DNA of 64,000 bases from Escherichia phage vB_EcoM_Goslar: the sequence record NC_048170.1; one strand, written 5' to 3'. Numbering within the stretch: position 1 is the first letter of the stretch; the number at the start of each line of letters is the position of its first letter. The position numbers and the translations under genes are program-made. The notes below the pieces were generated by a model, which worked only from the letters and a program-made list of their open reading frames with translations, had not been told where the DNA came from and made no database searches. Below are positions 15,690 to 44,041 of the stretch, one piece after another.

Positions 15690-17189
15690 ATGAGCGAACA
15701 AGAACGAAAACCTAAGAAGAAACTGCTCGGTATTCAATGTCGACACATCAGCTATAACGAAGCGAACGATGGCAGCAAGAACGACCTCATGATCGCAAAA
15801 GAGATCATGTTCTTTGATGATAATACGCAAGCGACGAACCTTCGCTTCTTTGAGAATTACAAACGTCCGTTTTGGGTGACAGTAGAGAGTAAACGTAAGA
15901 ACAAATATAAAAAGGAAAGCGAGAAGCTGTCACATGTGCGACGCTACGATGTCCGTCAAAGTGAACTGGTTGAAAAGATCAGTTCGGTGCTTTATAAAAG
16001 ACGTGCCGATGATAACACCCGTTTACAGCAGCTTGCACGGAGTCCATACCTCTATGGAACGGACGTTAGCGCCAGCTGTTATTTAAAAACCCAATACAAT
16101 ACAAAATGGCCGGAATACGTCGATAAATTACCCGCTTCTATCGCCTGTTTCGATATCGAAACTGACGTTGTCCATGGACACGGTAAGATCGTCTGTATGT
16201 CTATTACAATGGGATACAATGCGATACTTTGCTATACCAAGGACTTCGTTGGTCATATTCCGAATGCGATTGAGAAAACTCATGAGAAGATTCGATATTA
16301 TCTGGCCGAACGTCTGAATACCAAAGAAGATCCTCACGCGTTCGAAAAATATCATTACGATGTGCGAATCGTAGAAAGTCCGGCACAAGCGGTCATCCAA
16401 TGCATGCAAAAGGTTCACGAATGGCAGCCGGATTATCTCCTCGGCTGGAATATCGCGTTCGATATTCCGCGCATGCTCCAGGCACTGAACGAGGAAGGGT
16501 ATCGTCCCGAGGATGTTTTCTCCGATCCTCGTGTACCACCTAAATATCGTATTGCTCGCTGGGTACCACCGAAGACCGACAAGGTATCTGCTTCAGGTCG
16601 TAAAACCAACCTTACCCTCGAGCAGACCTGGCCGATGTTTTATACGATGGCTACGTATCAGGTTATGGATGCGATGTGTGGCTATAAGTTCGTTCGTTTA
16701 GGAAGACCGGATGAAGGACGCTATTCACTCGATGCGGTATTAGAGCGAAATAAATGCCATACGAAATTAAAAGCGATTCCTGGTACAGAAGGGTTCACGG
16801 AGCTTGCGTGGCACGAAGAAATGCAAACGAACCATCAAATCGACTACGGCGTATATAACCTTTGGGATAACCAAGGCATCGAGGCGTTGGACCAGAAAAC
16901 AAAAGACTATTCGATGACCATCCCTATCCGTTTAGCGGCGTCGGATTTGAAAGATTTCAGTTCTAACCCTAAACGTATCTGCGATAAACTTTTCTTCGTT
17001 TATCTTAACCGTGGGGAAGTCATGGGATGCACCGCCGACGACATGACCCAGGAAGAAGATAAGTGGGTTATCTCACGAACCGGACATATCGTCACATTAC
17101 CATGCGATCTCATGGCGGACAACGGCATTCATCTCTTCTGGGATATGCCTAATTTAAGGAGCTATATTCGATTATTTGTTGCGGATTAA
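15690..17189 (+). CDS. Family B DNA polymerase (E. coli Pol II-like) 3'-5' exonuclease domain; ORF ends before the polymerase palm motifs
   Basis: Exo I CFDIETD, Exo II GWNIAFDIPRML, Exo III YNLWD in canonical order and spacing; no motif A/B/C in this ORF. Confidence 0.7.
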   Translation: MSEQERKPKKKLLGIQCRHISYNEANDGSKNDLMIAKEIMFFDDNTQATNLRFFENYKRPFWVTVESKRKNKYKKESEKLSHVRRYDVRQSELVEKISSVLYKRRADDNTRLQQLARSPYLYGTDVSASCYLKTQYNTKWPEYVDKLPASIACFDIETDVVHGHGKIVCMSITMGYNAILCYTKDFVGHIPNAIEKTHEKIRYYLAERLNTKEDPHAFEKYHYDVRIVESPAQAVIQCMQKVHEWQPDYLLGWNIAFDIPRMLQALNEEGYRPEDVFSDPRVPPKYRIARWVPPKTDKVSASGRKTNLTLEQTWPMFYTMATYQVMDAMCGYKFVRLGRPDEGRYSLDAVLERNKCHTKLKAIPGTEGFTELAWHEEMQTNHQIDYGVYNLWDNQGIEALDQKTKDYSMTIPIRLAASDLKDFSSNPKRICDKLFFVYLNRGEVMGCTADDMTQEEDKWVISRTGHIVTLPCDLMADNGIHLFWDMPNLRSYIRLFVAD

Positions 17190-17257: not shown

Positions 17258-18469
17258 ATGTTACATGAGGTTTACGAGATGGAAAAATCTATACATACTC
17301 AAACTGGAACTATTGACTATCGCGATTCAGCATATTTGCCGTACACAAATCATCGTTATCGTATATTTGAAGATGGCGAGTTGTACGACTATAAAGAAGA
17401 TAGGGTCGTCCCTTACGAAGTTGTAGACGGTGTCCCTTATGTTGAAATCGATTGGTATAGAGGCATTGGAAAATACGATCTCGGTATGATCATTCTCACC
17501 GTTCTTGAACGGGTTGCTTTACCAGATCACCTTTACGATGAAATTGAATCGTTGTTTGTGGACGGAGATCCGACTAACTTTTCGTATAGCAATCACATCT
17601 ACCGTTTCCGTAATGGGCCGTTAGAAGTTGAGGGATTCGAAGGTTATTGTTATATTCCGTTTGCATCTCGTTACGCGATAAATAAAGAAGGACATTGTAT
17701 TAGTCTTCTTTCGTTGGATCCTATCACGTGGACGAAAACGGTTCAGCAAGGCACACGTCTTGGCGGATACGCTTATCGTAAAGTGGTTCCCGACAGCGGG
17801 TTTACACCGCAGTTATATCGTCACCGAGCTATCATGTTAGCGTTTACGAGATATGATGCTAACGTTGTGAACTTAACTGTAAATCATAAAAACGGAATTA
17901 AAGGTGACGATTGGTTTGACAACCTCGAATGGGCGACATATGCCGAGAACAATCAACATGCTCGTATGGCAGGGTTGTGTATAGGTACGTCAAAACCTGT
18001 TTTGGTTTATGATTACCGTGCACGAATCGAACGTCGTTTTAATAGTATCGCAGAAGCGGAACGTGCTTATCCGTACGTGCCGAAAGGACGTTTCAAATGG
18101 TGGGTAAACAATCCTCCGAAACGTATCCCAGAATGCGATTTATACATCAAGTTTGCCACGGACAATACGCCTTGGCCGGAGTGGAAACTTGGAGAAGATC
18201 GTCGTGTCGAGGACACCGACGGTCGCGGTATTCTCGCTATTAATAAAGAGACGAACGAACGACATGTGTTTCCATCAGTAACTGCTGCCGCAAATGCGTT
18301 AGGAATCTCCTGGATTACCGTAAGACGTCATTGCGATCGTCGTGCAGTACCTACGAAACAGCCTTGGTGTTTTCGTTACGCTGATGATATCGCTGCCATG
18401 CCTGATTTCGATGTTAATAAATTAGTTCCTAAGAAGAAGCGTGTATTTAATGTCCCATTAGAACGATAA
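17258..18469 (+). CDS. HNH homing endonuclease (403 aa)
   Basis: HNH motif LTVNHKNGIKGDDWFDNLEWATYAENNQHA; AGAGAGG RBS; location between polymerase gene segments. Confidence 0.8.
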   Translation: MLHEVYEMEKSIHTQTGTIDYRDSAYLPYTNHRYRIFEDGELYDYKEDRVVPYEVVDGVPYVEIDWYRGIGKYDLGMIILTVLERVALPDHLYDEIESLFVDGDPTNFSYSNHIYRFRNGPLEVEGFEGYCYIPFASRYAINKEGHCISLLSLDPITWTKTVQQGTRLGGYAYRKVVPDSGFTPQLYRHRAIMLAFTRYDANVVNLTVNHKNGIKGDDWFDNLEWATYAENNQHARMAGLCIGTSKPVLVYDYRARIERRFNSIAEAERAYPYVPKGRFKWWVNNPPKRIPECDLYIKFATDNTPWPEWKLGEDRRVEDTDGRGILAINKETNERHVFPSVTAAANALGISWITVRRHCDRRAVPTKQPWCFRYADDIAAMPDFDVNKLVPKKKRVFNVPLER

Positions 18470-30468: not shown

Positions 30469-33081
30469 TTAAGCGTCTGGTGTAAAATCAAAAGGAATGT
30501 CCGTACGAATGATATCATAACGTTTTCCTAATAAATAGAACTCTTCGGGAACCTGGCCGGGAATAATGCTATCGCCGATGAACTGCGGATACGCCCAGAT
30601 GTACTGAGTGAGTCCTTCGAACATATCCAGGTTATTTGCGTGGTTACCCATGATACGTTTCCAGAGTTCGCGTTTATACGGTGTTTTAACATCGAATCCA
30701 TAAAGCGGTGCAAGATCTTCACCAGGAACAAATCCCAGGTAATAATGGATCTGACTAACCGGGAAACCAAGCGTATCTCGCGGAATGGTGATCGCTTGCT
30801 CAGCCTTGGTGACATGCGTTTCAATAATCCAGTCGTAGCACTCCGAATAGAACCGATCGAATTTCTCTGGGTTATACCACGCTTTGGGAAGATTCAGTTT
30901 CTCCGTGAACGCGTTCGACATGATCGTCGGCAAGAACGGAAGAACGCCGGTTTTGATCTGCGTGTATTTCGATTTTACCCGGTTAACCAAATTCCAGCAA
31001 CTGTATCCTAATTGGTCGTTACAAAACTCAACGTAGAGATCGTAGTCACCACCGGATAACGGGTTGTTAATATCACCGATGTCTGCGGCGTATTTGTTGG
31101 GATATCGGTTATTGAAAGCCAGTTTGGTTTGGTAATCGTAGATACACGGTTTGTTGTTCGCTGTATTGATCCACCACCAGGGTTCACCTACTTGTACACA
31201 AATGTCCTGGACATGGGGGTAGATGATATCAGCAAACGCGGTTAACACATCCCCTAACCACGCCATCGCCTGTTGGTTACATGGAGACAGCAACCAGGAC
31301 GGTGGTGTATATCCGGTTGCTGCGATGTTTCCTTCCCAATCCTGCTGCGCCCACTCGAATGGACACGCCGTACTCATCAATTCGTAACTTAAACTGATGG
31401 TGACAGAGAAATGGTGTTTTGCAGCATATGCGGCGAAAGCTTCATGCCACGCGATACAGGGTGGATTTAATACATCCGTGGTGTTCACCAGTAACTTACC
31501 CGCACTTGGCGTCCAGACAGTATCGTAGAAATGCGACATTCCAACATAATGCACTAATTCATCCTGATATCCCGCATAAACCAGGTTTTCAAATACACGC
31601 TCTGGCGTGATGTTGTAATGGTCATCGTAAGCGGTTATCGCACGAAGTTCGTGTGGCGTACAATGATGGCGATTAACCGTCATTTCCTGATACACCCCAT
31701 CGATAGGAAGAATCTCGAGGGTTAAACCGAGGTCGATTGGCGTTTCCAGATAGGTCGTTTCAGTCGCATCTTCCTTATAATGTCGAGAACTCATGCTGAA
31801 CATCAACGACGTTACCGATTCAAGTTCGATAGGTTCGTCAGCATAGAACCCCGCCATTGCGTCATTGAAATCGATCGTCACGATTGCGCTTGTACCGTCT
31901 TCAGAGACGTCGGTCGCATATCGGGTTAATGAGATATACTGACGGCTATCGTCTTTGTGTACGATGGTTAGAACCGGCGGGTTTTCGGTATCTGCAAAGT
32001 TACGCTGATCGCCAGTAAACGTGATCTTCGCTTTAAAGATCAAACCGAATAACGACGTCATGGGATCATACGCAATACAACCGTGATCCAGCGTATCCGT
32101 TGTCCGCCATTCTATCCCGACCAACCCGTTAGCGGTATGGCATCGCATATACGCATTAAGGACCATGTCTTCACTGACAACCGCGAAGTTCTCTGTTGAC
32201 TGACCGTTGATAATCCAATACATCGGTTGCCAGAGGTTACGCGTACCTTTTGCGTAGCGGTAGGTTGGTGCGCCTTTAGGGTTGCCATTATTGAGATGGA
32301 ATACGGCAGTACCTTGATAATGGTCGTTCGTATTAATCGGAACACTGTAAGCATCACCGAGATCCGTACGTTCCACCTTCGTGACTGTTGCGTTTTCAAA
32401 CAACCCACGTAGCGCCGGTAAACCGATATCTTCAGGTGCGTTTTCTCGACGAATCGCATCCGCGATGCGGTGGGCTAAGGCGGGGTAAATGGCCTCACCC
32501 TGCTGTAGGTTTGCAAGACCTACAAAGCGATCGGGGTCGATGCCAGCAATCAATAACTCGACATCACCCTTCGTTCTATCGTCGTTAAGATATTTCAGTC
32601 CGGTAAGGTCAAGATGCTGAATAAGCGACAACAGGTTGTATTTACGGTTTTCAACAGTTAGTACAAGATCGCCTGCCCAAACCAAACTTCCCTCATCCGC
32701 TGTTACTTTAACGGATTGTCGGCCTGTGGTAGACGTTGTTGTCGTTTTATTTAATTGTCCTTGTAGGAAGTCGGTTGCGAGGTCAAAGGCAATGCCGTAA
32801 CGGTCAGCGACCGCTTGCATGATTTCACGTAACTGGGTATCTTCTTCAATGATAATCTTGATAGGTATTCCCAAGAACGCTTTAGCGAGGTCTCGTTTAA
32901 CCAACGAGACGAATACGGATTTGTAGTATCGGCTTCCATCTTTCCCTTTAAAAAGAATGGAGGTTGTTTCGGGTGCCGATAGAACACGTGCAAATTCAAC
33001 ATCGTCGAATGTAAGAGAAAGTCCGTTTTTCTCGTTGACCAATCTTAGTATTTCATTTTGCGCGGTTTCATGTAACTTCAT
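30469..33081 (-). CDS. Putative tail fiber / receptor-binding protein (870 aa) with N-terminal domain shared with 38868..39413 and 43211..44041
   Basis: N-terminal similarity (RDLAKAFLGIPIKIIIE versus RDIAKAFLGIPVKIVLE); Trp/Tyr/Gly-rich C-terminal part; position in the fiber locus. Confidence 0.55.
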   Translation of the reverse strand: MKLHETAQNEILRLVNEKNGLSLTFDDVEFARVLSAPETTSILFKGKDGSRYYKSVFVSLVKRDLAKAFLGIPIKIIIEEDTQLREIMQAVADRYGIAFDLATDFLQGQLNKTTTTSTTGRQSVKVTADEGSLVWAGDLVLTVENRKYNLLSLIQHLDLTGLKYLNDDRTKGDVELLIAGIDPDRFVGLANLQQGEAIYPALAHRIADAIRRENAPEDIGLPALRGLFENATVTKVERTDLGDAYSVPINTNDHYQGTAVFHLNNGNPKGAPTYRYAKGTRNLWQPMYWIINGQSTENFAVVSEDMVLNAYMRCHTANGLVGIEWRTTDTLDHGCIAYDPMTSLFGLIFKAKITFTGDQRNFADTENPPVLTIVHKDDSRQYISLTRYATDVSEDGTSAIVTIDFNDAMAGFYADEPIELESVTSLMFSMSSRHYKEDATETTYLETPIDLGLTLEILPIDGVYQEMTVNRHHCTPHELRAITAYDDHYNITPERVFENLVYAGYQDELVHYVGMSHFYDTVWTPSAGKLLVNTTDVLNPPCIAWHEAFAAYAAKHHFSVTISLSYELMSTACPFEWAQQDWEGNIAATGYTPPSWLLSPCNQQAMAWLGDVLTAFADIIYPHVQDICVQVGEPWWWINTANNKPCIYDYQTKLAFNNRYPNKYAADIGDINNPLSGGDYDLYVEFCNDQLGYSCWNLVNRVKSKYTQIKTGVLPFLPTIMSNAFTEKLNLPKAWYNPEKFDRFYSECYDWIIETHVTKAEQAITIPRDTLGFPVSQIHYYLGFVPGEDLAPLYGFDVKTPYKRELWKRIMGNHANNLDMFEGLTQYIWAYPQFIGDSIIPGQVPEEFYLLGKRYDIIRTDIPFDFTPDA

Positions 33082-33103
33082 TAAAAACCTCTGCCCTTTA
33101 GAA

Positions 33104-33745
33104 TTAGATGTACTGCTTACCGCCCACGAAGGAAGTTAACCAGTTACCCGAAACAAGCTGCGAAGCCCAGCCAGGCACTGCCCTACCGTTCTGACTCATG
33201 ATGTTACCACACCAACCAGGGAATCCGGGACGGATGTAATAGAAAGTTAAATTGTAGAGATGGCAATTCCATACCGCAACGTTATGTTTACCAGAAACCG
33301 CTTTAAAGATAAATGCGACAGGTAACGGAGACGATAACAATTCGGTCACAGGGACGGCTGACCAGTTCGCATTCGCGTTCCATGGCTGCCAGGTATGGCT
33401 ACGCGAGTCACCGTTGACGTTACCGTTGCTACCGCGTCCGCCCGCGTTCCACCATAGCGACGGACTCATGTTCTTAAGTGAGGTAAATTGCTGCGGTGGA
33501 ATATTCGGAATGATAACAGGGTTGGTACCTTGTCCGTGTTTCTTTTCTTTTGCGTTCACATAGCCGTTTATCGATTCCAGGTATTTGACACCAGGATAAT
33601 TGTTCTGGACTTGTGTCGCAATATCACGAACGTCGAACGTCCAGCAGATCATGGTGTTGTAGTAAGCGTCGGTGTTATCGTGCCATGAGTTACCATCTTG
33701 TAAACGTGCGCCACTATTCGGTGTTTTATCTGTACTTATAGCCAT
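33104..33745 (-). CDS. Hypothetical protein (213 aa), Trp/Asn/Gly-rich; possible fiber-tip accessory protein
   Basis: ORF track; composition; position between fiber genes. Confidence 0.6.
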   Translation of the reverse strand: MAISTDKTPNSGARLQDGNSWHDNTDAYYNTMICWTFDVRDIATQVQNNYPGVKYLESINGYVNAKEKKHGQGTNPVIIPNIPPQQFTSLKNMSPSLWWNAGGRGSNGNVNGDSRSHTWQPWNANANWSAVPVTELLSSPLPVAFIFKAVSGKHNVAVWNCHLYNLTFYYIRPGFPGWCGNIMSQNGRAVPGWASQLVSGNWLTSFVGGKQYI

Positions 33746-33883
33746 GGTCTTGTCCTATATGTTGGTGGTTGAGGTGGCGGATATCGGATGCGTGCTGGAC
33801 GTGAACCCTATAGTTCGCGCTATCGCCATTTTCTACCTCGTTTCTATTCTCAAAAAGGAAATTTCATACGATGACGCCATAGC

Positions 33884-33913
33884 AGCTCCTCCTTCCCTGA
33901 CGGGTTGGAGGAG
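33884..33913 (-). terminator. Stem-loop (GCTCCTCC / GGAGGAGC) downstream of the lipoprotein gene
   Basis: Inverted repeat followed on the minus strand by a T-rich tract. Confidence 0.5.
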
Positions 33914-33922
33914 CATACTTAA

Positions 33923-34426
33923 TTACTTACTGATAACCTCAACGGAATTGGGATCAGCGATCAACGCACGATCGGTAGAACAATTGAAGAAGACCATGCC
34001 AACACCATCGCCGTTCGAGTTCAGGGTTGAACTTGCGTAAGACAATGTTGGTTTATTCATGCGGTAGAAGCGTTCGCTGGTTGCGGTATTGAACCCCAGA
34101 TCAACGTAGTCTTTCACCGTGGTATACAACTGGGTGGACTCGAAAACGGTTACCGGAGAGTCGACGGTAAACTGACTACCTTCATCCACAACCAGAACTT
34201 TATCGTTCCAGATTTCAGTGGTTGAAAACTTCGGTTTCCAATGTTCGAATTCCTGGGTTGCGCCCCAGCAGGAATACACAGCGAGATTGCTGTTCTTCTC
34301 AACAGGTTTCAACCCCACCAGTTGTGTCAGGTCTTTATCCAGGTTCGGTAAGCCTTCCAGCGTAGCGCACCCACCCAGAGAAAGCACCATCAACATACCA
34401 AGAATAATCGCGCAAAGTTTCTTCAT
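33923..34426 (-). CDS. Putative lipoprotein (167 aa)
   Basis: N-terminal signal peptide with lipobox (MKKLCAIILGMLMVLSLGGC). Confidence 0.7.
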   Translation of the reverse strand: MKKLCAIILGMLMVLSLGGCATLEGLPNLDKDLTQLVGLKPVEKNSNLAVYSCWGATQEFEHWKPKFSTTEIWNDKVLVVDEGSQFTVDSPVTVFESTQLYTTVKDYVDLGFNTATSERFYRMNKPTLSYASSTLNSNGDGVGMVFFNCSTDRALIADPNSVEVISK

Positions 34427-34470
34427 CGTCGGATTTCCTTATGTGTTAACGGAAGTGATTTCCATAGTAA

Positions 34471-34911
34471 TTACTTAGCAGCAGGAAATTCCGGCCAATC
34501 GATATTTGGTGCAGCATCGGTATCGACAGCCGACACCGCGTCAACGTAATCCAAAACGGCGTTAAGTCGGGTCGTTTCTTCCGGAGTCAGTTTTCGCCCA
34601 GCCCGTAATTTTAACTGAATAAGATCGATGGAAGCCAGCGAAGAATCAATCAAAGATTGTTTTATCTGTTCTGCCTCGGCGACAAGTTCTTCGTGTTGCC
34701 GCTCGGGTTCCGGAGGCGCGATAAACTCGCCGTTTGAGTATAACCAACCTATTCCAGGTGACACAGCTGCCGTATCGCTAATGCTAACCAGCTGCTGATT
34801 GTCGAATATATCGAGCTCTGCTTCACCATCGTAAACAATCGTGTTTACTACCACTCCATTTTCAATAACAGCGTATAATGTACTCATTACATAAACTCCT
34901 CGATGATGCAA
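34471..34911 (-). CDS. Tail fiber assembly chaperone (Tfa-like)
   Basis: C-terminal VSAVDTDAAPNIDWPEFP closely matches the lambda Tfa C-terminus (LNRVDTSTAPDIEWPAVP); 25-nt overlap with the tail fiber gene. Confidence 0.8.
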   Translation of the reverse strand: MHHRGVYVMSTLYAVIENGVVVNTIVYDGEAELDIFDNQQLVSISDTAAVSPGIGWLYSNGEFIAPPEPERQHEELVAEAEQIKQSLIDSSLASIDLIQLKLRAGRKLTPEETTRLNAVLDYVDAVSAVDTDAAPNIDWPEFPAAK

Positions 34912-37900
34912 ATCCCATTAGCACCACGCCCACCAGGCTTAGCGGTTCCTGAGTAAGAGTTATCGTAAGCACCACCACCACCCGAACCAGGCGCGAGGCC
35001 GTTATGGGCGGTGCCAACACCAGCGCGACCGCCACCGCCCCAATATGACGCACCCCCACATCCACCGACGGCAATAGTACCGGCTTGTCCATCGCTACCG
35101 TCTCCGCCCGGAATGCGTATATCCCCGGTAGCAGGTGCGCCCCCATAGCCACCGCCAGTGTTTGTGACAGTTGTTTTTCCTGCGCCTTGCCCGCCGGGAG
35201 CAGTTAGCAGGGATGCAAATTTACTATCCCCACCCCCGTTCCCAGACGTCGCCCCAGAGCCACCGGAACCACCAGAACCAATTATAACAGAATAACTAGC
35301 AGCTGTTACCGTTATAACCGAAATTACTGTTCCGCCAGCTCCTCCCCCAGCACCAAAAAACGTTTCGCTGTTGGAATAAGCCTGACAGCCACCGCCGCCA
35401 CCGCCGCCACCGGTTATTGTTACTCTAATCCGTTTTGTTCCTTGTGTTGGAGTGTACGTCCCTGACGATGTGAAAACACGCATGTTCAGTAAACGTCCGA
35501 CATATCCGCTAGAATCGGCTAAACCAAGATCTTTAGCTGCTAACGTGATATTAGCTGTACCATCGAAAGGTTTACCGTTAATCGTGCGCGCAGTTTGCAA
35601 CTTCGTCGCCGTGGCTGCGTTCCCTGATGTATTCTGGTTCCCCGCGACGTTAACACCTGGTAGATTGATGTTCGCACTACCGTCGAAAGACACCCCACCA
35701 ATGGTGCGGGCTGTTTTCAGTTTTGTCGCCGTGGCGGCATTCCCCGTAGTGTCTTGGTTTCCTGCTGCGTTAACACCCGGCAGACTGATATTTGCCGTAC
35801 CATCGAACGCGACACCGCCAATCGTCCTTGCCGTTTGTAGTTTTGTCGCCGTGGCGGCATTACCGGTTGTGCTTTGGTTACCGGTGGTGTTTACCCCAGG
35901 TAGGCTGATATTTGCTGTTCCGTCAAATGAAACGCCGCCAATCGTCCTTGCCGTTTGCAACTTCGTTGCGGATGCCGCGTTCCCCGTGGTGTTTTGGTTA
36001 CCTGTTGCATTCACACCAGGGATACTATCCTTAGATGTATAGATCTGTGCCCATTCCGACCAATTCGAATCGGCTGCATCCCGACGAGAACGAAGATAGG
36101 CTGGCGCATGCGCCCCCGATGTACCAGACCATCCAATAAGGATCTCACCTTCACCTACTGCGGTTGCGCCTTTAAGATGAATAATATTGCCGTACGCTGT
36201 AGGGTATCCGTTATTGTACGCTTCATACATCTGGATACCCGTATTGCTACCCTGGGTCGCATTAGCTAAAGCGGTGACCCGTCCCTTGGAAGCGAGCACG
36301 TTAATGCTAAAGCTAATATCAGTTGTACCGTCAAAGGCGACCCCATTAATCCTCCGTGCCGTTTGGAGTTTCGTGGCAGTAGCCGCATTACCAGAAGTGC
36401 TCTGGTTACCCGCTTTGTTCACACCCGGTAAATCAATGTTGGCAGTCCCATCAAACGACACACCCCCTATGGTTCTCGCCGTCTGGAGTTTTGTTGCTGA
36501 ACCGGCGTTTCCGGAAGTGCTTTGATTGCCCGCGGCGTTGACACCAGGTAGGTTAATGCTAGCAGAACCATCAAAAGAAACTCCACCGATCGTAATGGTC
36601 GTTTGCAACTTCGTGGCTGTCGCAGCGTTACCCGTCGTATTCTGATTACCAGCTGCATTGACGCCAGGTAATGCGATATCAGTTGTACCGTCAAAAGCGA
36701 CACCACCGATTTTACGGGCGGTCTGTAGCTTGGTTGCGCTTCCTGCGTTTCCGCTGGTGTCTTGGTTTCCTGCAGCGTTAACACCCGGTAGACTGATGCT
36801 GACCGAACCATCGAAACTCACACCACCGATCGTAACAGCGGTTTTCAATTTCGTGGCAGTAGCTGCGTTACCGGTTGTATTTTGATTGCCTGTCGCATTA
36901 ACGCCCGGTAATGCAATATCCGCTGTTCCGTCAAAGGCAACGCCACCGATTCTACGTGCAGTTTGTAGCTTGGTCGCTGTAGCGGCATTACCGCTGGTAT
37001 TTTGCGTGCCTGCTTTATTTACACCGGGAAGATCGATGTTAGCAGAACCGTCGAAGCTAACGCCACCTATCGTTCTTGCCGTAGCAAGTTTAGCTGCTGT
37101 AGCAGCGGCGTTACCGACTTTTAACCATTCGCCCCATGGACCATCCTGGCCGTTCCATGATGCCGTTAAACTACGTACGTAAATATTGCCGGTACGTACA
37201 GTGTAACGTTGTGTTCCACCGAATTGCCCGGTTGGGAGCACTTCAATGTAACCTGCGGCGTTTGCTTCAGGGAAATTGTGGGCGACGTCCGCGTTCGTCG
37301 TTATTGGTTTAGACCAAATACCCACAGATGCTTCGACTGGACCGAAGGTATTCAGATTTGCGTCCGTCGCCATAGCACCATTAAATTTCAGGTACGTCTC
37401 TGGCGATAATCCGATCGTTTTAGCAAACGCAACTTTATCTACGATATCACTACCGTTATTCCCTGCCTGCAATGCTGTCTTAGCTGCCTTTATGGTTTCT
37501 GTCAATCCAAGATACAGTAAGACCGCATCAACGCTTCCTTTGCTTAGCAGATTCAGACCTGTTGACGTTACGTTAGTTAGCCCGATTTGGTTCCGTCCAG
37601 TAAAATAAGGGAGTTTATTCGCATCTGTTGTTAGGTTAGACCACGCGGTCAGCAACGCGTTCAACGGTTGTTTACCCGCCAACGCATTGGTTACTGTCGT
37701 TGCGAAATTAGGATCGTTCCCTAAAGCTTGAGCCAGCTCATTAAGCGTATTTAGCGCTTCTGGAGACGAGTCGATCAGCGATGCGATAGCACGCATCACA
37801 AATTCCGTGTTGGCAATCTGTCGACTGCTATCGTTCTCTGCAGCCGTAGGCGCTGCCGGGATACCGGTGAACACAGGGCTATTAAGATCTGCCTTGAGAG

Positions 37901-38861
37901 CGATGAGACGTTTAAGTGCGTCGACATCGACTTTCAGGTTTTCCCATCCGATGAGAGAACCACCACTGGCGTTATGATAACGGTTGTACCAGAAGTCGCC
38001 GTTAACGCCAAAAAAGAATATACCTTTCTCTTCGTATTGTGGGCCAGAACTATTTCGTGATGTTTCGATATATTTGATTTCAATAAGACCGCTAAACACC
38101 ACTCCTGGGATTATATTGTTGTTTCCAGCTGACTGTGATACCTGGTAAATCCCCGGGGTTGCGGCTTTAACCCATGTTAAGAATTCTGTTACTCCAGCGG
38201 CACCGCTAAAATTCTTAACGTCGGTAAGTATCGCCCCATAACCGAACATACCGGGTAGAGCCACTCGTTCGCTGGTACGGTCACGAATATCTGTCGCAAC
38301 AACGGGCAATTGTTTACGAACAGCATTAACCGCTTTAGGCGTGGCCGATTTTGTCTCGTCGTCGCTATCGGTTTCATTACTTAGAATAGTTAAACCGCGT
38401 GTAGCAGTAGTTGCATCAGGAAGAAATGCGTTATCCAACACCTTAAGCTGTATTGCACTCGTATTACTAACAACGACATGCACCTGACAGTTAAGAACGC
38501 TGGTTGCGCCTTCGGCAGGCGTAGGCTTATATCTTTCTGGCGCACTGCAGACGGCAATCAGAACACCTTGGTCATCATACAGACCGATCTCACGTACCCA
38601 GAACCCACCTTGACCAGCGGGAATAATACCCTCAACGATAATCCTGGTTGTGCTATCACCATCCGCATGGATATTAGAAACTTCCCCACGATAAACTTCG
38701 TGAACAAGCGCTGTTTGGCTGGCGGTCGGGGTTGGGATCGAGCCGTTACCATCACCAACGGCAAAGTGTGTGATTTTTAGTTTCTCACCGTCGGGAAGTA
38801 ACGCAGCGGTGATACGTTCTGCTCCTTTATCGGTAACTACCGTTATATATGCTGTACTCAT
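34887..38861 (-). CDS. Tail fiber protein (1324 aa): conserved fiber N-terminal domain, eleven 40-aa repeats, polyglycine-rich C-terminal region
   Basis: N-terminus resembles lambda Stf / P2 gpH-type fibers (RGLTILSNETDSDDETKSATPKAVNAV); repeats of GNAATATKLQTARTIGGVSFDG; Tfa gene immediately downstream. Confidence 0.85.
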   Translation of the reverse strand: MSTAYITVVTDKGAERITAALLPDGEKLKITHFAVGDGNGSIPTPTASQTALVHEVYRGEVSNIHADGDSTTRIIVEGIIPAGQGGFWVREIGLYDDQGVLIAVCSAPERYKPTPAEGATSVLNCQVHVVVSNTSAIQLKVLDNAFLPDATTATRGLTILSNETDSDDETKSATPKAVNAVRKQLPVVATDIRDRTSERVALPGMFGYGAILTDVKNFSGAAGVTEFLTWVKAATPGIYQVSQSAGNNNIIPGVVFSGLIEIKYIETSRNSSGPQYEEKGIFFFGVNGDFWYNRYHNASGGSLIGWENLKVDVDALKRLIALKADLNSPVFTGIPAAPTAAENDSSRQIANTEFVMRAIASLIDSSPEALNTLNELAQALGNDPNFATTVTNALAGKQPLNALLTAWSNLTTDANKLPYFTGRNQIGLTNVTSTGLNLLSKGSVDAVLLYLGLTETIKAAKTALQAGNNGSDIVDKVAFAKTIGLSPETYLKFNGAMATDANLNTFGPVEASVGIWSKPITTNADVAHNFPEANAAGYIEVLPTGQFGGTQRYTVRTGNIYVRSLTASWNGQDGPWGEWLKVGNAAATAAKLATARTIGGVSFDGSANIDLPGVNKAGTQNTSGNAATATKLQTARRIGGVAFDGTADIALPGVNATGNQNTTGNAATATKLKTAVTIGGVSFDGSVSISLPGVNAAGNQDTSGNAGSATKLQTARKIGGVAFDGTTDIALPGVNAAGNQNTTGNAATATKLQTTITIGGVSFDGSASINLPGVNAAGNQSTSGNAGSATKLQTARTIGGVSFDGTANIDLPGVNKAGNQSTSGNAATATKLQTARRINGVAFDGTTDISFSINVLASKGRVTALANATQGSNTGIQMYEAYNNGYPTAYGNIIHLKGATAVGEGEILIGWSGTSGAHAPAYLRSRRDAADSNWSEWAQIYTSKDSIPGVNATGNQNTTGNAASATKLQTARTIGGVSFDGTANISLPGVNTTGNQSTTGNAATATKLQTARTIGGVAFDGTANISLPGVNAAGNQDTTGNAATATKLKTARTIGGVSFDGSANINLPGVNVAGNQNTSGNAATATKLQTARTINGKPFDGTANITLAAKDLGLADSSGYVGRLLNMRVFTSSGTYTPTQGTKRIRVTITGGGGGGGGCQAYSNSETFFGAGGGAGGTVISVITVTAASYSVIIGSGGSGGSGATSGNGGGDSKFASLLTAPGGQGAGKTTVTNTGGGYGGAPATGDIRIPGGDGSDGQAGTIAVGGCGGASYWGGGGRAGVGTAHNGLAPGSGGGGAYDNSYSGTAKPGGRGANGICIIEEFM
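35544..37106 (-). repeat. In-frame tandem coding repeats (120-bp unit, about 6.6 + 4 copies, interrupted at 36024..36314) within the tail fiber gene
   Basis: Periodicity read from the translated protein; explains the spurious antisense ORFs 35452..37182. Confidence 0.85.
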
Positions 38862-38867
38862 GGTGTT

Positions 38868-39413
38868 TTATCCTGGATAAATAGTGATGATATCACCAAT
38901 GACGGTTGTGGCACCGGCGTAAAGATGAGCCGGAGATACATCGTGTTGGTTTGTCACAGTAAGATCCAATCGACCACGCCAAACCACGGAGGTATTCGCG
39001 ATGGGGATAGAAATCTTTTTGGATATATCGTCACGAAAATCAATAACAGTGGCAAGGGTAACCGCATCAAAATCAACGTCGGGGTCAAAGACGAACCCGT
39101 ATTGATCTGAAATCGCCCGAATAATCGCATGTATAGTTGTTGTCTCGACGGACTCTAAAACGATTTTTACCGGTATTCCTAAAAATGCCTTCGCGATATC
39201 GCGTCGAGCGTAAACGATAAAACTTTCACCACACCACTTTGTTCCTTCATTTGCTGTGACGATCACTTTTGCCCTGTTAGCACCAGAACTCCCATCCAAG
39301 GTTAATGTAAGATCGGAGTTGCTGAACACGCTACCGTTACGTTGGTTTATCAACGTAATCAGTTCGTCTTTCCATGGCGGGTAAAGTGAACGCATAAGCG
39401 CACCCTCCTCCAA
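38868..39413 (-). CDS. Short paralog (181 aa) consisting essentially of the N-terminal domain shared with 30469..33081; possible adaptor
   Basis: Alignment by eye across about 150 aa with the N-terminus of the 870-aa protein. Confidence 0.65.
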   Translation of the reverse strand: MEEGALMRSLYPPWKDELITLINQRNGSVFSNSDLTLTLDGSSGANRAKVIVTANEGTKWCGESFIVYARRDIAKAFLGIPVKIVLESVETTTIHAIIRAISDQYGFVFDPDVDFDAVTLATVIDFRDDISKKISIPIANTSVVWRGRLDLTVTNQHDVSPAHLYAGATTVIGDIITIYPG

Positions 39414-39600
39414 TAATCAAATTAAAATGTAAAACGCCTCGAAACCGGAGTGCGATTCGAGGTAAACGTAAACAGTCCAGACGACCGCATAAAATTCCGC
39501 GCATATTGCCCCTCTACCCCGACAAAGCGAGATAGAGGGGAGGATAATACGATTATGCTACTACACTCCAAAGTTCATGGGGCGGTAATCGCCCCATCGG

Positions 39601-43210: not shown

Positions 43211-44041
43211 TTAATCGTAACTAAAATAAAGTTTGCTGCTGACGCCGCTATCGGAACGAGGTTTTAATACCAGAACAGAGCTTCCGAACGACGGAAGTAT
43301 TGGAACATCTAAATCGTTCGCATCGGCAACTTTTCCATTATAAACGACATTGGCTGTTGTGATGAGTTCCCAAGCTAAGGTATAACTCATTGAAATCAGC
43401 GACGAGGCTAAACGGAATGCGTTGTATCCTTCTGGAGTATCTCCAACCGACATCGAACGTATCGCATCTTGCGGCGGTAAATTTAGCTTGATGCCGTAGG
43501 TGCTGAATGTGTGGAAATCCCCTTGTTTACTATCTTCTGGATAATACGAGGTTAGCGGTTCTCGCACCGTAATCAGTTCGCTAATATCGGTACTTACATC
43601 TTTTCGTGCGAGGAATTGAAACGTACCGTGCCATGATGCCGACGCGTCAGAACGAACGGGAACAGATATGGTTTTCTCGCCGCTTTCAAATTTAACCTGT
43701 GACGCTAACGCTGAAGAATCAAAGATCGTTAAATCGATCTTCAACCCATACTTCTTAAACAGCTGCGTTAAGCAGTCTGCTATCGTCGTCTTATCAGCAA
43801 CGACAATAAAAGGTTGGTGTTTGATAAAGAGCTTATTAATGTCTCGACGTTGAAGATAAACCTGTACGGGGTCTTCGACGTAGTAAACCGATTGTGGTGC
43901 AGGGGCTATAGAAAGGCGTAACCGACCCGATGCACCATACCAGGCTGGCGTTAACGTAATGTCTGACAGGGACAACGGATGCTGGAGATAGGCGTTTATT
44001 TTAGATAACACTTCCTCCTGCCATGATGCTTCAGGATACAT
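43211..44041 (-). CDS. Hypothetical protein (276 aa) with weaker similarity to the shared N-terminal domain
   Basis: ORF track; pattern similarity (RRDINKLF...YG...D...TISVPV). Confidence 0.65.
   Translation of the reverse strand: MYPEASWQEEVLSKINAYLQHPLSLSDITLTPAWYGASGRLRLSIAPAPQSVYYVEDPVQVYLQRRDINKLFIKHQPFIVVADKTTIADCLTQLFKKYGLKIDLTIFDSSALASQVKFESGEKTISVPVRSDASASWHGTFQFLARKDVSTDISELITVREPLTSYYPEDSKQGDFHTFSTYGIKLNLPPQDAIRSMSVGDTPEGYNAFRLASSLISMSYTLAWELITTANVVYNGKVADANDLDVPILPSFGSSVLVLKPRSDSGVSSKLYFSYD

What the first reader, a model, noticed from the sequence alone, without database searches (positions are those of the whole stretch)
35544..37106. Tail fiber with eleven 120-bp in-frame repeats and a polyglycine-punctuated C-terminus
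The 1324-aa fiber contains about 6.6 and 4 copies of a 40-aa repeat (GNAATATKLQTARTIGGVSFDGSANIDLPGVNxAGNQxTS), separated by a 97-aa insert. The last ~175 residues carry runs of Gly (GGGGGGGG, GGGAGG, GGSGGSG). Tandem repeats of this length are substrates for recombinational length change, and glycine-rich blocks flanking variable segments are known from T2-type gp38 adhesins. This is the likely host-range determinant.
Basis: seen in the sequence. Interest (0 to 1): 0.55.

Follow-up and report, generated by a model that had tools for sequence, protein, structure and literature searches.

The report
Jumbo-phage tail fibre with swappable tip
This is the already annotated long tail-fibre gene of the E. 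coli jumbo phage Goslar: a shaft of 40-residue repeats whose number differs between related phages, ending in a glycine-rich tip that is exchanged together with its helper gene, so it is an ordinary but well-illustrated host-recognition module.

Summary
Window 34887..38861 (-) encodes a 1324-aa protein with eleven units at an exact 40-aa period. The seventh unit is interrupted by a 96-aa domain, and the last 175 residues are 34% glycine.

The protein is 100% identical to the "tail fiber repeat protein" of Escherichia phage vB_EcoM_Goslar, a 237-kb chimallivirus. It is a mosaic:
- a P2 gpH-type N-terminal domain;
- a P1 gpS-type distal shaft (repeats plus knob);
- a C-terminal Gly_rich_2 domain homologous to the TNF-like/glycine-rich tip of cyanophage Pam3 gp24.

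A Caudo_TAP chaperone gene overlaps the stop codon.

Among 120 close homologue clusters the unit number runs from 5 to 11 in exact 40-aa steps. The tip is replaced wholesale by Peptidase_S74, Collar or unnamed tips. The chaperone gene appears, changes or vanishes with the tip, inside flanks that are 92-96% identical.

The repeats themselves are old: third-codon identity is 33% and the longest shared word is 23 nt. They are therefore not hot slippage substrates.

A 2026 screen assigns Goslar's receptor to LPS outer-core glucose II with the receptor-binding protein unknown. This tip is the best candidate. Both structure predictions failed. The result is known biology of modest interest.

The parts
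34887..38861 (-). Tail-fibre gene (1324 aa). It is 100% identical to the Goslar 'tail fiber repeat protein', which is gp90 by gene order.
   Evidence: ORF list and translation; identity to P0001; Pfam and PHROG matches; the preprint lists gp90 among virion tail or fibre proteins.
38439..38861 (-). N-terminal baseplate-attachment domain (aa 1-141), P2 gpH type.
   Evidence: PF12571 Phage_tail_fib, E = 2.6e-41. Identity to gpH of P2, Wphi and other peduoviruses is 41-43% over aa 1-180.
38316..38411 (-). The only copy of the Pfam 'Phage tail fibre repeat' (aa 151-182). It is not the 40-aa repeat.
   Evidence: PF03406, E = 2.7e-08, one stretch at aa 151-182.
36315..37115 (-). Repeat array 1: units A-F (6 x 40 aa) plus the first 27 aa of unit G.
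   Evidence: Anchors at exact 40-aa spacing; coordinates; Tandem Repeats Finder period 240 at 36535-36974.
36027..36314 (-). A 96-aa domain (aa 850-945) inserted inside unit G. The same unit-plus-domain arrangement occurs in P1 gpS. Some relatives lack it.
   Evidence: Boundaries. P1 S and the S protein of a P1-like plasmid show '...DININTLVSRGRVTA' after a unit. P0080, P0094, P0095 and P0113 have no insert. No paralogue was found elsewhere in the protein. The fold is unresolved: AF2 gave pLDDT 43.9.
35547..36026 (-). Repeat array 2: the last 13 aa of unit G, units H-J, and the 27-aa terminal unit K.
   Evidence: Tandem Repeats Finder period 120 at 35593-36020.
34890..35528 (-). Distal tip (aa 1112-1324): the Gly_rich_2 domain, homologous to the TNF-like plus glycine-rich receptor-binding module of Pam3 gp24.
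   Evidence: PF21722, E = 1e-11, covering profile positions 2-224 of 226. phmmer against PDB gives Pam3 gp24 (7YFW/7YPX) as top hit at E = 0.021, aligned to the very C-terminus. JD001 gp63 is 62% identical to this tip and hits Pam3 gp24 at E = 5e-8. Conservation with prophage and P1-like tips starts at about aa 1112.
34471..34887 (-). Tail-fibre assembly chaperone (138 aa). Its ATG overlaps the fibre stop codon (TAATG).
   Evidence: PF02413 Caudo_TAP, E = 3.2e-20, and PHROG tail fibre assembly families. Junction sequence. Gene call of 138 aa on independent contigs.
34467..35540 (.). Exchange cassette (tip plus chaperone), replaced in related phages. Its left edge lies in or just after the last repeat unit. 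Its right edge lies just after the chaperone stop.
   Evidence: DNA identity to relatives L007 and L008 is 92-96% outside the cassette. It is lost at window ~35523-35541 and resumes at 34466. Gene content of the relatives.

Best explanation
The gene encodes the long tail fibre of phage Goslar (gp90).

**Orientation.** The P2 gpH-type N-terminus anchors the trimer to the baseplate periphery. The chain then runs outward through helical and globular segments into a shaft of eleven 40-residue units. One unit carries an inserted 96-aa knob. [quoted passage not shown]

**Assembly.** The overlapping downstream Caudo_TAP protein folds and trimerises that tip.

**Receptor binding.** The tip is the receptor-binding element. 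Its most likely target is the LPS outer core, because glucose II is reported as Goslar's receptor.

**Two layers of evolution.**
1. Whole 40-aa units are occasionally gained or lost by unequal recombination, which changes shaft length in fixed steps.
2. The conserved repeat sequence at the end of the shaft and the conserved gene after the chaperone act as homology arms. Through them the tip-plus-chaperone cassette is replaced, including by modules shared with P1-like phage-plasmids and small Klebsiella and E. coli myoviruses.

**What is shown and what is inferred.**
- Shown here: the anatomy, the family memberships, the copy-number polymorphism, and the cassette replacement with co-varying chaperone.
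- Inferred: the orientation on the virion, LPS binding by the tip, and the functional effect of shaft length.
For: **Identity and family**
- 100% identical to the Goslar tail fibre repeat protein.
- Pfam finds PF12571, PF03406 and PF21722, with PF02413 on the next gene. PHROG tail-fibre families reach E = 0.
- The N-terminus is 41-43% identical to P2 gpH.
- The preprint detects gp90 in purified virions at five or more copies. It could not resolve the fibres.

**Tip**
- Pam3 gp24 is the top PDB hit directly (E = 0.021). It is also hit through JD001 gp63 (E = 5e-8), which is 62% identical to the Goslar tip.
- In the Pam3 structure the glycine-rich domain is distal and is clasped by a Tfa-like chaperone.
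- A gp24-like Klebsiella fibre, TFP_Y, binds LPS, and its host-range mutations map to the glycine-rich domain.
- Goslar's receptor is LPS GluII, with the receptor-binding protein listed as unknown.
- Glycines are near-invariant and the non-Gly positions between them vary: mean entropy 0.21 against 0.81.

**Copy number**
- 5-11 units in exact 40-aa steps across 120 homologue clusters, within every tip class.
- A 240-nt two-unit indel is seen directly in DNA alignments.

**Cassette exchange**
- A Gly_rich_2 tip comes with a 138-aa TAP.
- A Collar tip comes with a different, 194-aa TAP.
- Peptidase_S74 and the unnamed 173-aa tip come with no TAP.
- Flanks are 92-96% identical in all cases.
- Tip plus Tfa is about 68% nt-identical to the S/U genes of P1-like plasmids.
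Against: - No experiment ties gp90 to adsorption.
- The Goslar structure preprint proposes a separate 'DUF7941 fibre cloud' with carbohydrate-binding domains as host-recognition elements. Genes for these flank gp90.
- The direct sequence match to Pam3 gp24 is marginal and compositionally biased (E = 0.021, bias 51 bits). A profile search found nothing.
- The AF2 model of the tip was unusable (pLDDT 42.7), so the fold is inferred, not shown.
- The repeats share at most 23 identical nucleotides. Homologous unit exchange must be inefficient, and some copy-number differences may reflect old lineages rather than ongoing change.
- How a P2-type N-terminal domain docks on a phiKZ-type baseplate is unknown. 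The nearest sequenced relatives, PCH45 and SPLA10, lack the module.
Confidence: 0.8

Rival explanations
1. gp90 is a real fibre but only an accessory one. Primary host recognition and LPS binding are carried out by the DUF7941 filament proteins encoded on both sides of it: the 870-aa protein with an N4 gp65-like TIM barrel, and the 1198-aa protein.
For: - The preprint proposes DUF7941 proteins with carbohydrate-binding or hydrolase domains as host-recognition elements.
- Pfam finds DUF7941 plus NCTSP TIM-barrel domains at 30469-33081, and DUF7941 at 38868-39413 and 43211-44041.
Against: - Those neighbours are conserved at 92-96% nt among relatives, while the gp90 tip and its chaperone are the parts that are swapped. 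That is the usual signature of the specificity element.
- Homologous glycine-rich tips bind LPS in Klebsiella phages.
- The two roles are not mutually exclusive.
Confidence: 0.15
2. The 40-aa units are themselves the binding surface, acting as a multivalent lectin-like shaft. Copy number would then tune avidity rather than length.
For: - The units are strongly conserved at protein level despite saturated synonymous sites.
- They recur in many unrelated fibres (1017 phage records).
- No solved structure or Pfam/NCBIfam family describes them, so their surface properties are unknown.
Against: - Conservation across phages with different hosts and different tips argues for a structural role rather than a specificity role (Escherichia, Shewanella, Acinetobacter, Aeromonas).
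- Within Goslar-like phages the same units sit behind four different tips.
Confidence: 0.07
3. The differences in repeat number among relatives are assembly artefacts: collapsed or expanded repeats in short-read metagenome assemblies.
For: Most relatives come from Logan or ENA short-read assemblies.
Against: - The units differ by 22-43% at DNA level and share no more than 23 identical nucleotides, so they are resolvable by ordinary reads.
- The 1324-aa protein was recovered identically from two separate runs and from the isolate genome.
- Each length class recurs in many independent clusters and contigs of about 236-244 kb.
- Missing units are specific and orthologous, for example C and D, or I.
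Confidence: 0.03

Closest known systems
Phage P1 tail fibre gpS with chaperone gpU, and the S/U genes of P1-like phage-plasmids
   Same: - The same 40-aa unit, and the same unit-interrupted-by-knob arrangement.
- P1-like plasmid fibres end in the same Gly_rich_2 tip followed by a Tfa. The tip-plus-chaperone segment is about 68% nt-identical over 98% of its length.
- P1 is also an LPS-core binder: GluIII in the table read.
   Different: - P1 switches tips with the Cin invertase. Here there is no second inverted tip/chaperone pair and no cix-like inverted repeat.
- P1 S has 2 units and the plasmid fibre 8, against 11 here.
- The N-terminal half is not P1-like.
- The carrier is a virulent 237-kb chimallivirus.
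Phage P2 tail fibre gpH (Pfam PF12571 N-terminal domain) with chaperone gpG
   Same: - The N-terminal 180 aa are 41-43% identical to gpH of P2, Wphi and related peduoviruses.
- PF12571 matches at E = 2.6e-41.
- The fibre gene is followed by a Caudo_TAP chaperone.
   Different: - Beyond aa ~180 there is no similarity to P2 gpH.
- The baseplate it must dock to is phiKZ-type, not P2-type.
- The docking partner is unknown.
Cyanophage Pam3 tail fibre gp24 with chaperone gp25 (PDB 7YFW, 7YPX); small Klebsiella and E. coli myovirus fibres (JD001 gp63, TFP_Y)
   Same: - The C-terminal domain is homologous. It is 62% identical to JD001 gp63, and both hit Pam3 gp24 end to end.
- A Tfa-type chaperone is encoded next to it.
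- Conserved glycine motifs carry variable residues between them.
- TFP_Y binds LPS.
   Different: - Pam3 gp24 and JD001 gp63 are whole fibres of 280-297 aa with a short helical stalk.
- Here the module is the last 213 aa of a 1324-aa fibre.
- The three-dimensional similarity could not be verified.
T2/S16-type gp38 adhesin (polyglycine-II sandwich with glycine-rich motifs and hypervariable segments)
   Same: - A conserved glycine scaffold presents short variable patches at a fibre tip.
- According to the Pam3 paper, the Pam3 glycine-rich domain structurally resembles S16 gp38 (PDB 6F45).
   Different: - gp38 is a separate small protein that caps gp37. Here the domain is covalently part of the fibre.
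- There is no detectable sequence match to gp38 in PDB at E <= 10.
- gp38 binds porins, whereas Goslar's reported receptor is LPS.

Membership tests
Phage tail-collar/P2 gpH-type fibre (Pfam PF12571 Phage_tail_fib) | An N-terminal domain that matches the family profile above the gathering score. | tested here: met
   141.5 bits against a cut-off of 23, aa 1-141, profile positions 1-140 of 150. 41-43% identity to P2-group gpH.
Phage tail-collar/P2 gpH-type fibre (Pfam PF12571 Phage_tail_fib) | A tail-fibre assembly chaperone is encoded immediately downstream. | tested here: met
   Caudo_TAP scores 73.1 bits against a cut-off of 22.1. Its start overlaps the fibre stop codon.
Pfam PF21722 Gly_rich_2 (glycine-rich domain) | A full-length profile match above the gathering score. 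| tested here: met
   45.7 bits against a cut-off of 24.3, aa 1132-1321, profile positions 2-224 of 226.
Pam3 gp24-type receptor-binding tip (TNF-like plus glycine-rich domain) | Sequence homology to the solved protein. | tested here: met
   The direct phmmer result is E = 0.021. It is the top hit, collinear to the C-terminus, but compositionally biased. The link through JD001 gp63 (62% identical to the Goslar tip) gives E = 5e-8.
Pam3 gp24-type receptor-binding tip (TNF-like plus glycine-rich domain) | The three-dimensional fold: a beta-sandwich leading into a stacked lattice of glycine-rich motifs. | tested here: inconclusive
   The AF2 model had mean pLDDT 42.7, with 25-31 across the glycine-rich part. 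No fold search was justified.
Pam3 gp24-type receptor-binding tip (TNF-like plus glycine-rich domain) | [quoted passage not shown] | not testable with these tools
   Inferred from the P2 gpH-type N-terminus and from the Pam3 structure. It needs imaging or binding assays.
T2/S16 gp38 adhesin | A separate small adhesin protein that attaches to the tip of the fibre protein. | tested here: not met
   The glycine-rich domain is the C-terminus of the 1324-aa fibre itself. The next gene is a Caudo_TAP chaperone, not an adhesin.
T2/S16 gp38 adhesin | Sequence similarity to gp38. | tested here: not met
   No gp38 chain was found in PDB at E <= 10, either with the tip sequence or with its profile. No gp38 family appears among the Pfam hits.
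T2/S16 gp38 adhesin | Conserved glycine-rich motifs alternating with variable segments. | tested here: met
   Mean column entropy is 0.21 at Gly against 0.81 at non-Gly positions. Variable patches lie at aa 1160-1165, 1179-1193, 1199-1216, 1260-1271 and 1282-1291.
Pfam PF03406 Phage_fiber_2 as the identity of the 40-aa repeat | The repeat units match the PF03406 profile. | tested here: not met
   The only PF03406 stretch is aa 151-182, upstream of the arrays. No Pfam or NCBIfam model matches aa 583-1105. Only PHROG fibre families cover it.
P1 gpS-type fibre | A distal shaft built from the same unit, with the knob inserted in a unit. | tested here: met
   P1 S and a P1-like plasmid S protein contain the unit, with the '...SRGRVTA' knob start directly after it. 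tblastn covers aa 320-1117 at 45% identity.
P1 gpS-type fibre | An invertible C-segment with alternative tips (Cin/cix). | tested here: not met
   Only one chance-level 18-nt inverted pair occurs in 32500-39600. The downstream genes are conserved non-fibre ORFs on the same strand.

The most novel reading that the evidence does not exclude
The 40-residue unit is a structurally undescribed fibre repeat: no Pfam, NCBIfam or PDB counterpart was found here. It would do double duty. As protein, it would be a shaft whose length is adjustable in fixed steps. As DNA, it would be a shared homology arm that lets a virulent, nucleus-forming jumbo phage trade tip-plus-chaperone cassettes with temperate P1-like phage-plasmids and small myoviruses. 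The Goslar tip would then be the missing receptor-binding protein for LPS outer-core glucose II.
Probability: 0.4. Interest if true: 0.45.

Novelty: already known. Interest (0 to 1): 0.28.

Why it matters
- Goslar is a model nucleus-forming phage whose fibres could not be resolved by cryo-EM. Its receptor-binding protein is listed as unknown, although its receptor has been mapped to LPS.
- This analysis nominates a precise 213-aa module plus a 138-aa chaperone as the element to test and to engineer.
- It defines the natural cassette boundaries (window ~34467-35540) used by related phages to change tips. That is a practical guide for retargeting chimalliviruses.
- It provides a natural allelic series of 5 to 11 shaft units. 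The series could show whether fibre length matters for reaching LPS through O-antigen or capsule.
- None of this changes the general picture of modular tail-fibre evolution known since the P2, P1, Mu and T-even comparisons.

Tried and rejected
**Searches that found nothing**
- Megablast of the fibre region and of window 1-25000 against the phage collection gave no match. Goslar seems absent from that copy, so relatives had to be found through proteins.
- phmmer of the whole protein against PDB matched only aa 355-415, to a 'tail collar fibre gp4' (9D93). It found nothing for the repeats.
- A profile of 49 tips against PDB found nothing even at E <= 10, probably because of composition filtering.
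- NCBIfam gave only sub-threshold noise.
- A literature search on repeat copy number and fibre length returned nothing relevant.

**Structure predictions that failed**
- The tip (aa 1079-1324, 49-sequence alignment) gave pLDDT 42.7.
- Unit G plus insert plus unit H (aa 823-998, 45 sequences) gave pLDDT 43.9.
- Both were monomer predictions on shallow alignments (>=63% and >=71% identity to the query), so I did not run fold searches on them.

**Ideas tested and dropped**
- The 96-aa insert is not detectably a paralogue of the two upstream globular segments (best E = 0.22).
- I considered and rejected an invertase-switched tip.
- I considered and rejected gp38 membership.
- I considered and rejected PF03406 as the identity of the repeat.
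- I considered and rejected assembly artefact as the cause of copy-number differences.
Full report
**1. What is there**

Window 34887..38861 on the minus strand is one ORF of 1324 codons. A motif scan finds eleven anchors of the unit GNAATATKLQTARTIGGVSFDGSANIxLPGVNxxGNQxT. Seven are spaced exactly 40 residues apart, then comes a step of 136, then four more at 40.

The arithmetic is exact. Residues 583-1105 are 523 aa, which is ten full units, a 27-residue terminal unit and a 96-residue insertion. The insertion (aa 850-945, window 36027..36314) sits inside the seventh unit, between ...DGTTDI and SIPGVN.... The register of the array is therefore kept across it. Tandem Repeats Finder independently reports periods of 120 and 240 nt.

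**2. Age of the repeats**

The nine complete units are 62-88% identical as protein but only 57-78% as DNA. Identity is 83% at codon positions 1 and 2 and 33% at position 3, which is essentially saturated. The longest nucleotide word shared by any two units is 23 nt.

Units B/D and C/E are the closest pairs. This explains the 240-nt super-period. The units are old copies held by selection on the protein. They are not a recent expansion, and they are poor substrates for slippage or efficient homologous exchange.

**3. Identity and context**

The protein is 100% identical to the "tail fiber repeat protein" of Escherichia phage vB_EcoM_Goslar. Goslar is a 237,307-bp jumbo myovirus with 46.5% GC.

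The rest of the window fits a chimallivirus. It holds a phage multisubunit RNA polymerase beta subunit, an NAD-dependent ligase, DUF7941 virion proteins and about 46% GC. The phage DNA collection held no nucleotide match.

The nearest sequenced relatives by a neighbouring tail protein are Serratia phage PCH45 and Salmonella phage SPLA10, at about 49% aa identity. They have no such fibre gene at the corresponding place.

By gene order the fibre is gp90. The DUF7941 genes I find at 30469-33081, 38868-39413 and 43211-44041 match the preprint's gp86, gp91 and gp93, and the 1198-aa ORF between the last two sits where its gp92 would be, although my Pfam scan found no domain in it. That preprint detects gp90 in purified virions but could not resolve the fibres or the peripheral baseplate.

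**4. Domain map**

| Residues | Feature | Evidence |
|---|---|---|
| 1-141 | Pfam Phage_tail_fib, E = 2.6e-41; 41-43% identical to P2-group gpH | |
| 151-182 | The single Pfam Phage_fiber_2 motif | |
| 355-415 | Conserved 'SPEALNTLNELAQALGNDPNF' segment, also in a solved tail collar fibre | |
| 583-1105 | The 40-aa repeat arrays with the inserted knob | |
| 1112-1324 | Tip; Pfam Gly_rich_2 covers 1132-1321 | |

The 40-aa unit itself has no Pfam or NCBIfam model and no sequence-detectable solved structure. It is nevertheless common in phage fibres: 1017 phage records match.

P1 gpS contains the unit twice, once directly followed by the same kind of knob. A P1-like phage-plasmid fibre carries eight units, intervening domains and the same tip.

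The next gene (34471..34887, 138 aa) is a Caudo_TAP assembly chaperone. Its ATG overlaps the fibre stop codon in the sequence TAATG.

**5. The tip**

phmmer of aa 1099-1324 against PDB gives cyanophage Pam3 fibre gp24 (7YFW/7YPX) as the top hit. The alignment is collinear to the last residue, but the score is marginal and compositionally biased (E = 0.021).

The tip is 62% identical to the small fibre gp63 of Klebsiella phage JD001. That protein hits Pam3 gp24 at E = 5e-8.

The Pam3 structure paper describes a TNF-like sandwich that leads into a lattice of twelve glycine-rich motifs at the distal end. The chaperone clasps this lattice, and the lattice structurally resembles S16 gp38 and the ALK ectodomain.

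A gp24-like Klebsiella fibre, TFP_Y, binds LPS and triggers DNA ejection. Its host-range mutations lie in the glycine-rich domain.

In an alignment of 157 tips the glycines are almost invariant, and variation sits in short non-glycine patches between them. The domain is not a gp38: it is fused to the fibre, and it has no detectable sequence match to gp38.

My own structure prediction of the tip failed (pLDDT 42.7), so the fold remains inferred.

**6. Comparison among relatives**

The 120 best homologue clusters are largely full-length fibres from contigs of about 234-245 kb, that is, Goslar-like phages.

*Unit number.* It ranges from 5 to 11 in exact 40-aa steps.

| Units | Clusters |
|---|---|
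| 5 | 3 |
| 6 | 4 |
| 7 | 10 |
| 8 | 61 |
| 9 | 16 |
| 10 | 18 |
| 11 | 8 |

Goslar sits at the maximum. Four of the clusters lack the 96-aa insert. Assigning each unit to its closest Goslar unit shows that specific units are missing, for example C and D, F, or I. A 240-nt two-unit indel is directly visible in DNA alignments.

*Tip class.* It changes immediately after the last unit, and the chaperone gene co-varies with it.

| Tip | Length from last anchor to C-terminus | Chaperone gene downstream |
|---|---|---|
| Gly_rich_2 | 238 aa | 138-aa TAP |
| Collar | 244 aa | a different, 194-aa TAP |
| Peptidase_S74 | 331 aa | none |
| Unnamed | 173 aa | none |

DNA identity to the relatives is 92-96% on both sides. 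It breaks down at window ~35523-35541 and resumes at 34466. The unit of exchange is therefore tip plus chaperone, about 1.07 kb. The Goslar version of the cassette is about 68% nt-identical to the S/U genes of P1-like plasmids in E. coli.

No invertible-segment signature is present.

**7. Mechanism proposed**

- The N-terminus anchors the trimeric fibre to the baseplate.
- The repeats form a shaft of adjustable length.
- The chaperone folds the tip.
- The tip binds the receptor.

A 2026 genome-wide screen lists Goslar's receptor as LPS outer-core glucose II and its receptor-binding protein as unknown. Homologous tips bind LPS, so this tip is the leading candidate. I put that specific step at roughly even odds.

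The main rival is that the flanking DUF7941 filament proteins do the recognising. Against this, those genes are conserved while the gp90 tip is the part being swapped.

**8. Verdict**

This is a real feature, correctly read by the first stage. It is an annotated gene of a published phage, and each of its modules except the 40-aa repeat unit matches a described family. The added value is threefold:
- the assignment of the tip to the Pam3 gp24 class;
- the natural 5-11 unit series;
- the mapped tip-plus-chaperone cassette.

Interest is modest.

Noticed in passing
window 39414-39600; loci L007 3557-5308 and L008 3556-5310: Two Goslar-like relatives carry an extra 583/584-aa gene (DUF7941 + DUF285) between the 1198-aa tail protein gene and the small DUF7941 gene. 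Goslar and relative L009 have only a ~190-nt gap there. This is a second presence/absence polymorphism in the host-recognition region.
   Followed up: partly
window 30469-33081 (-), 38868-39413 (-), 43211-44041 (-): The fibre gene is embedded among DUF7941 'virion structural' genes. The 870-aa one also carries the N-terminal and TIM-barrel domains of the phage N4 non-contractile tail sheath (receptor-binding) protein. A preprint proposes these as host-recognition filaments.
   Followed up: partly
proteins P0121-P0240 (E. coli chromosomes and plasmids): Hundreds of 308-aa E. coli prophage proteins annotated 'carbohydrate kinase' are in fact short tail-fibre proteins. They end in the same Gly_rich_2 tip, about 70% identical to the Goslar tip. 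This looks like a propagated misannotation.
   Followed up: partly
window 15690-17189 (+) and 17258-18469 (+): A 499-aa DNA polymerase ORF is followed directly by a 403-aa HNH endonuclease ORF. This may be a homing endonuclease next to, or splitting, the polymerase gene.
   Followed up: no
window 37367-37592 and 37949-38242 (inside the fibre gene, aa ~207-304 and ~423-498): These two patches of the proximal half lose high nucleotide identity to relatives L007 and L008, while the surrounding sequence stays at 86-97%. The fibre is therefore mosaic upstream of the repeats as well. First-anchor positions among homologues (555-590, 753, 901-904) point the same way.
   Followed up: partly
whole window against the 'phages' collection: Megablast of 25 kb of the window and of the fibre region found nothing, although the protein is 100% identical to a GenBank Goslar protein. 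Goslar appears to be missing from that copy of the collection, so 'no match' there does not mean the sequence is novel.
   Followed up: yes
locus L007 10474-11241: The relative with the Peptidase_S74 tip has an additional 255-aa gene of unknown function between the conserved 168-aa and 213-aa genes downstream of the fibre.
   Followed up: no
window 34001-38000: G+C rises to 0.50-0.51 over the fibre gene, against 0.43-0.49 elsewhere in the window. This fits Gly/Ala-rich coding, a foreign (P1/P2-like) origin of the module, or both.
   Followed up: no
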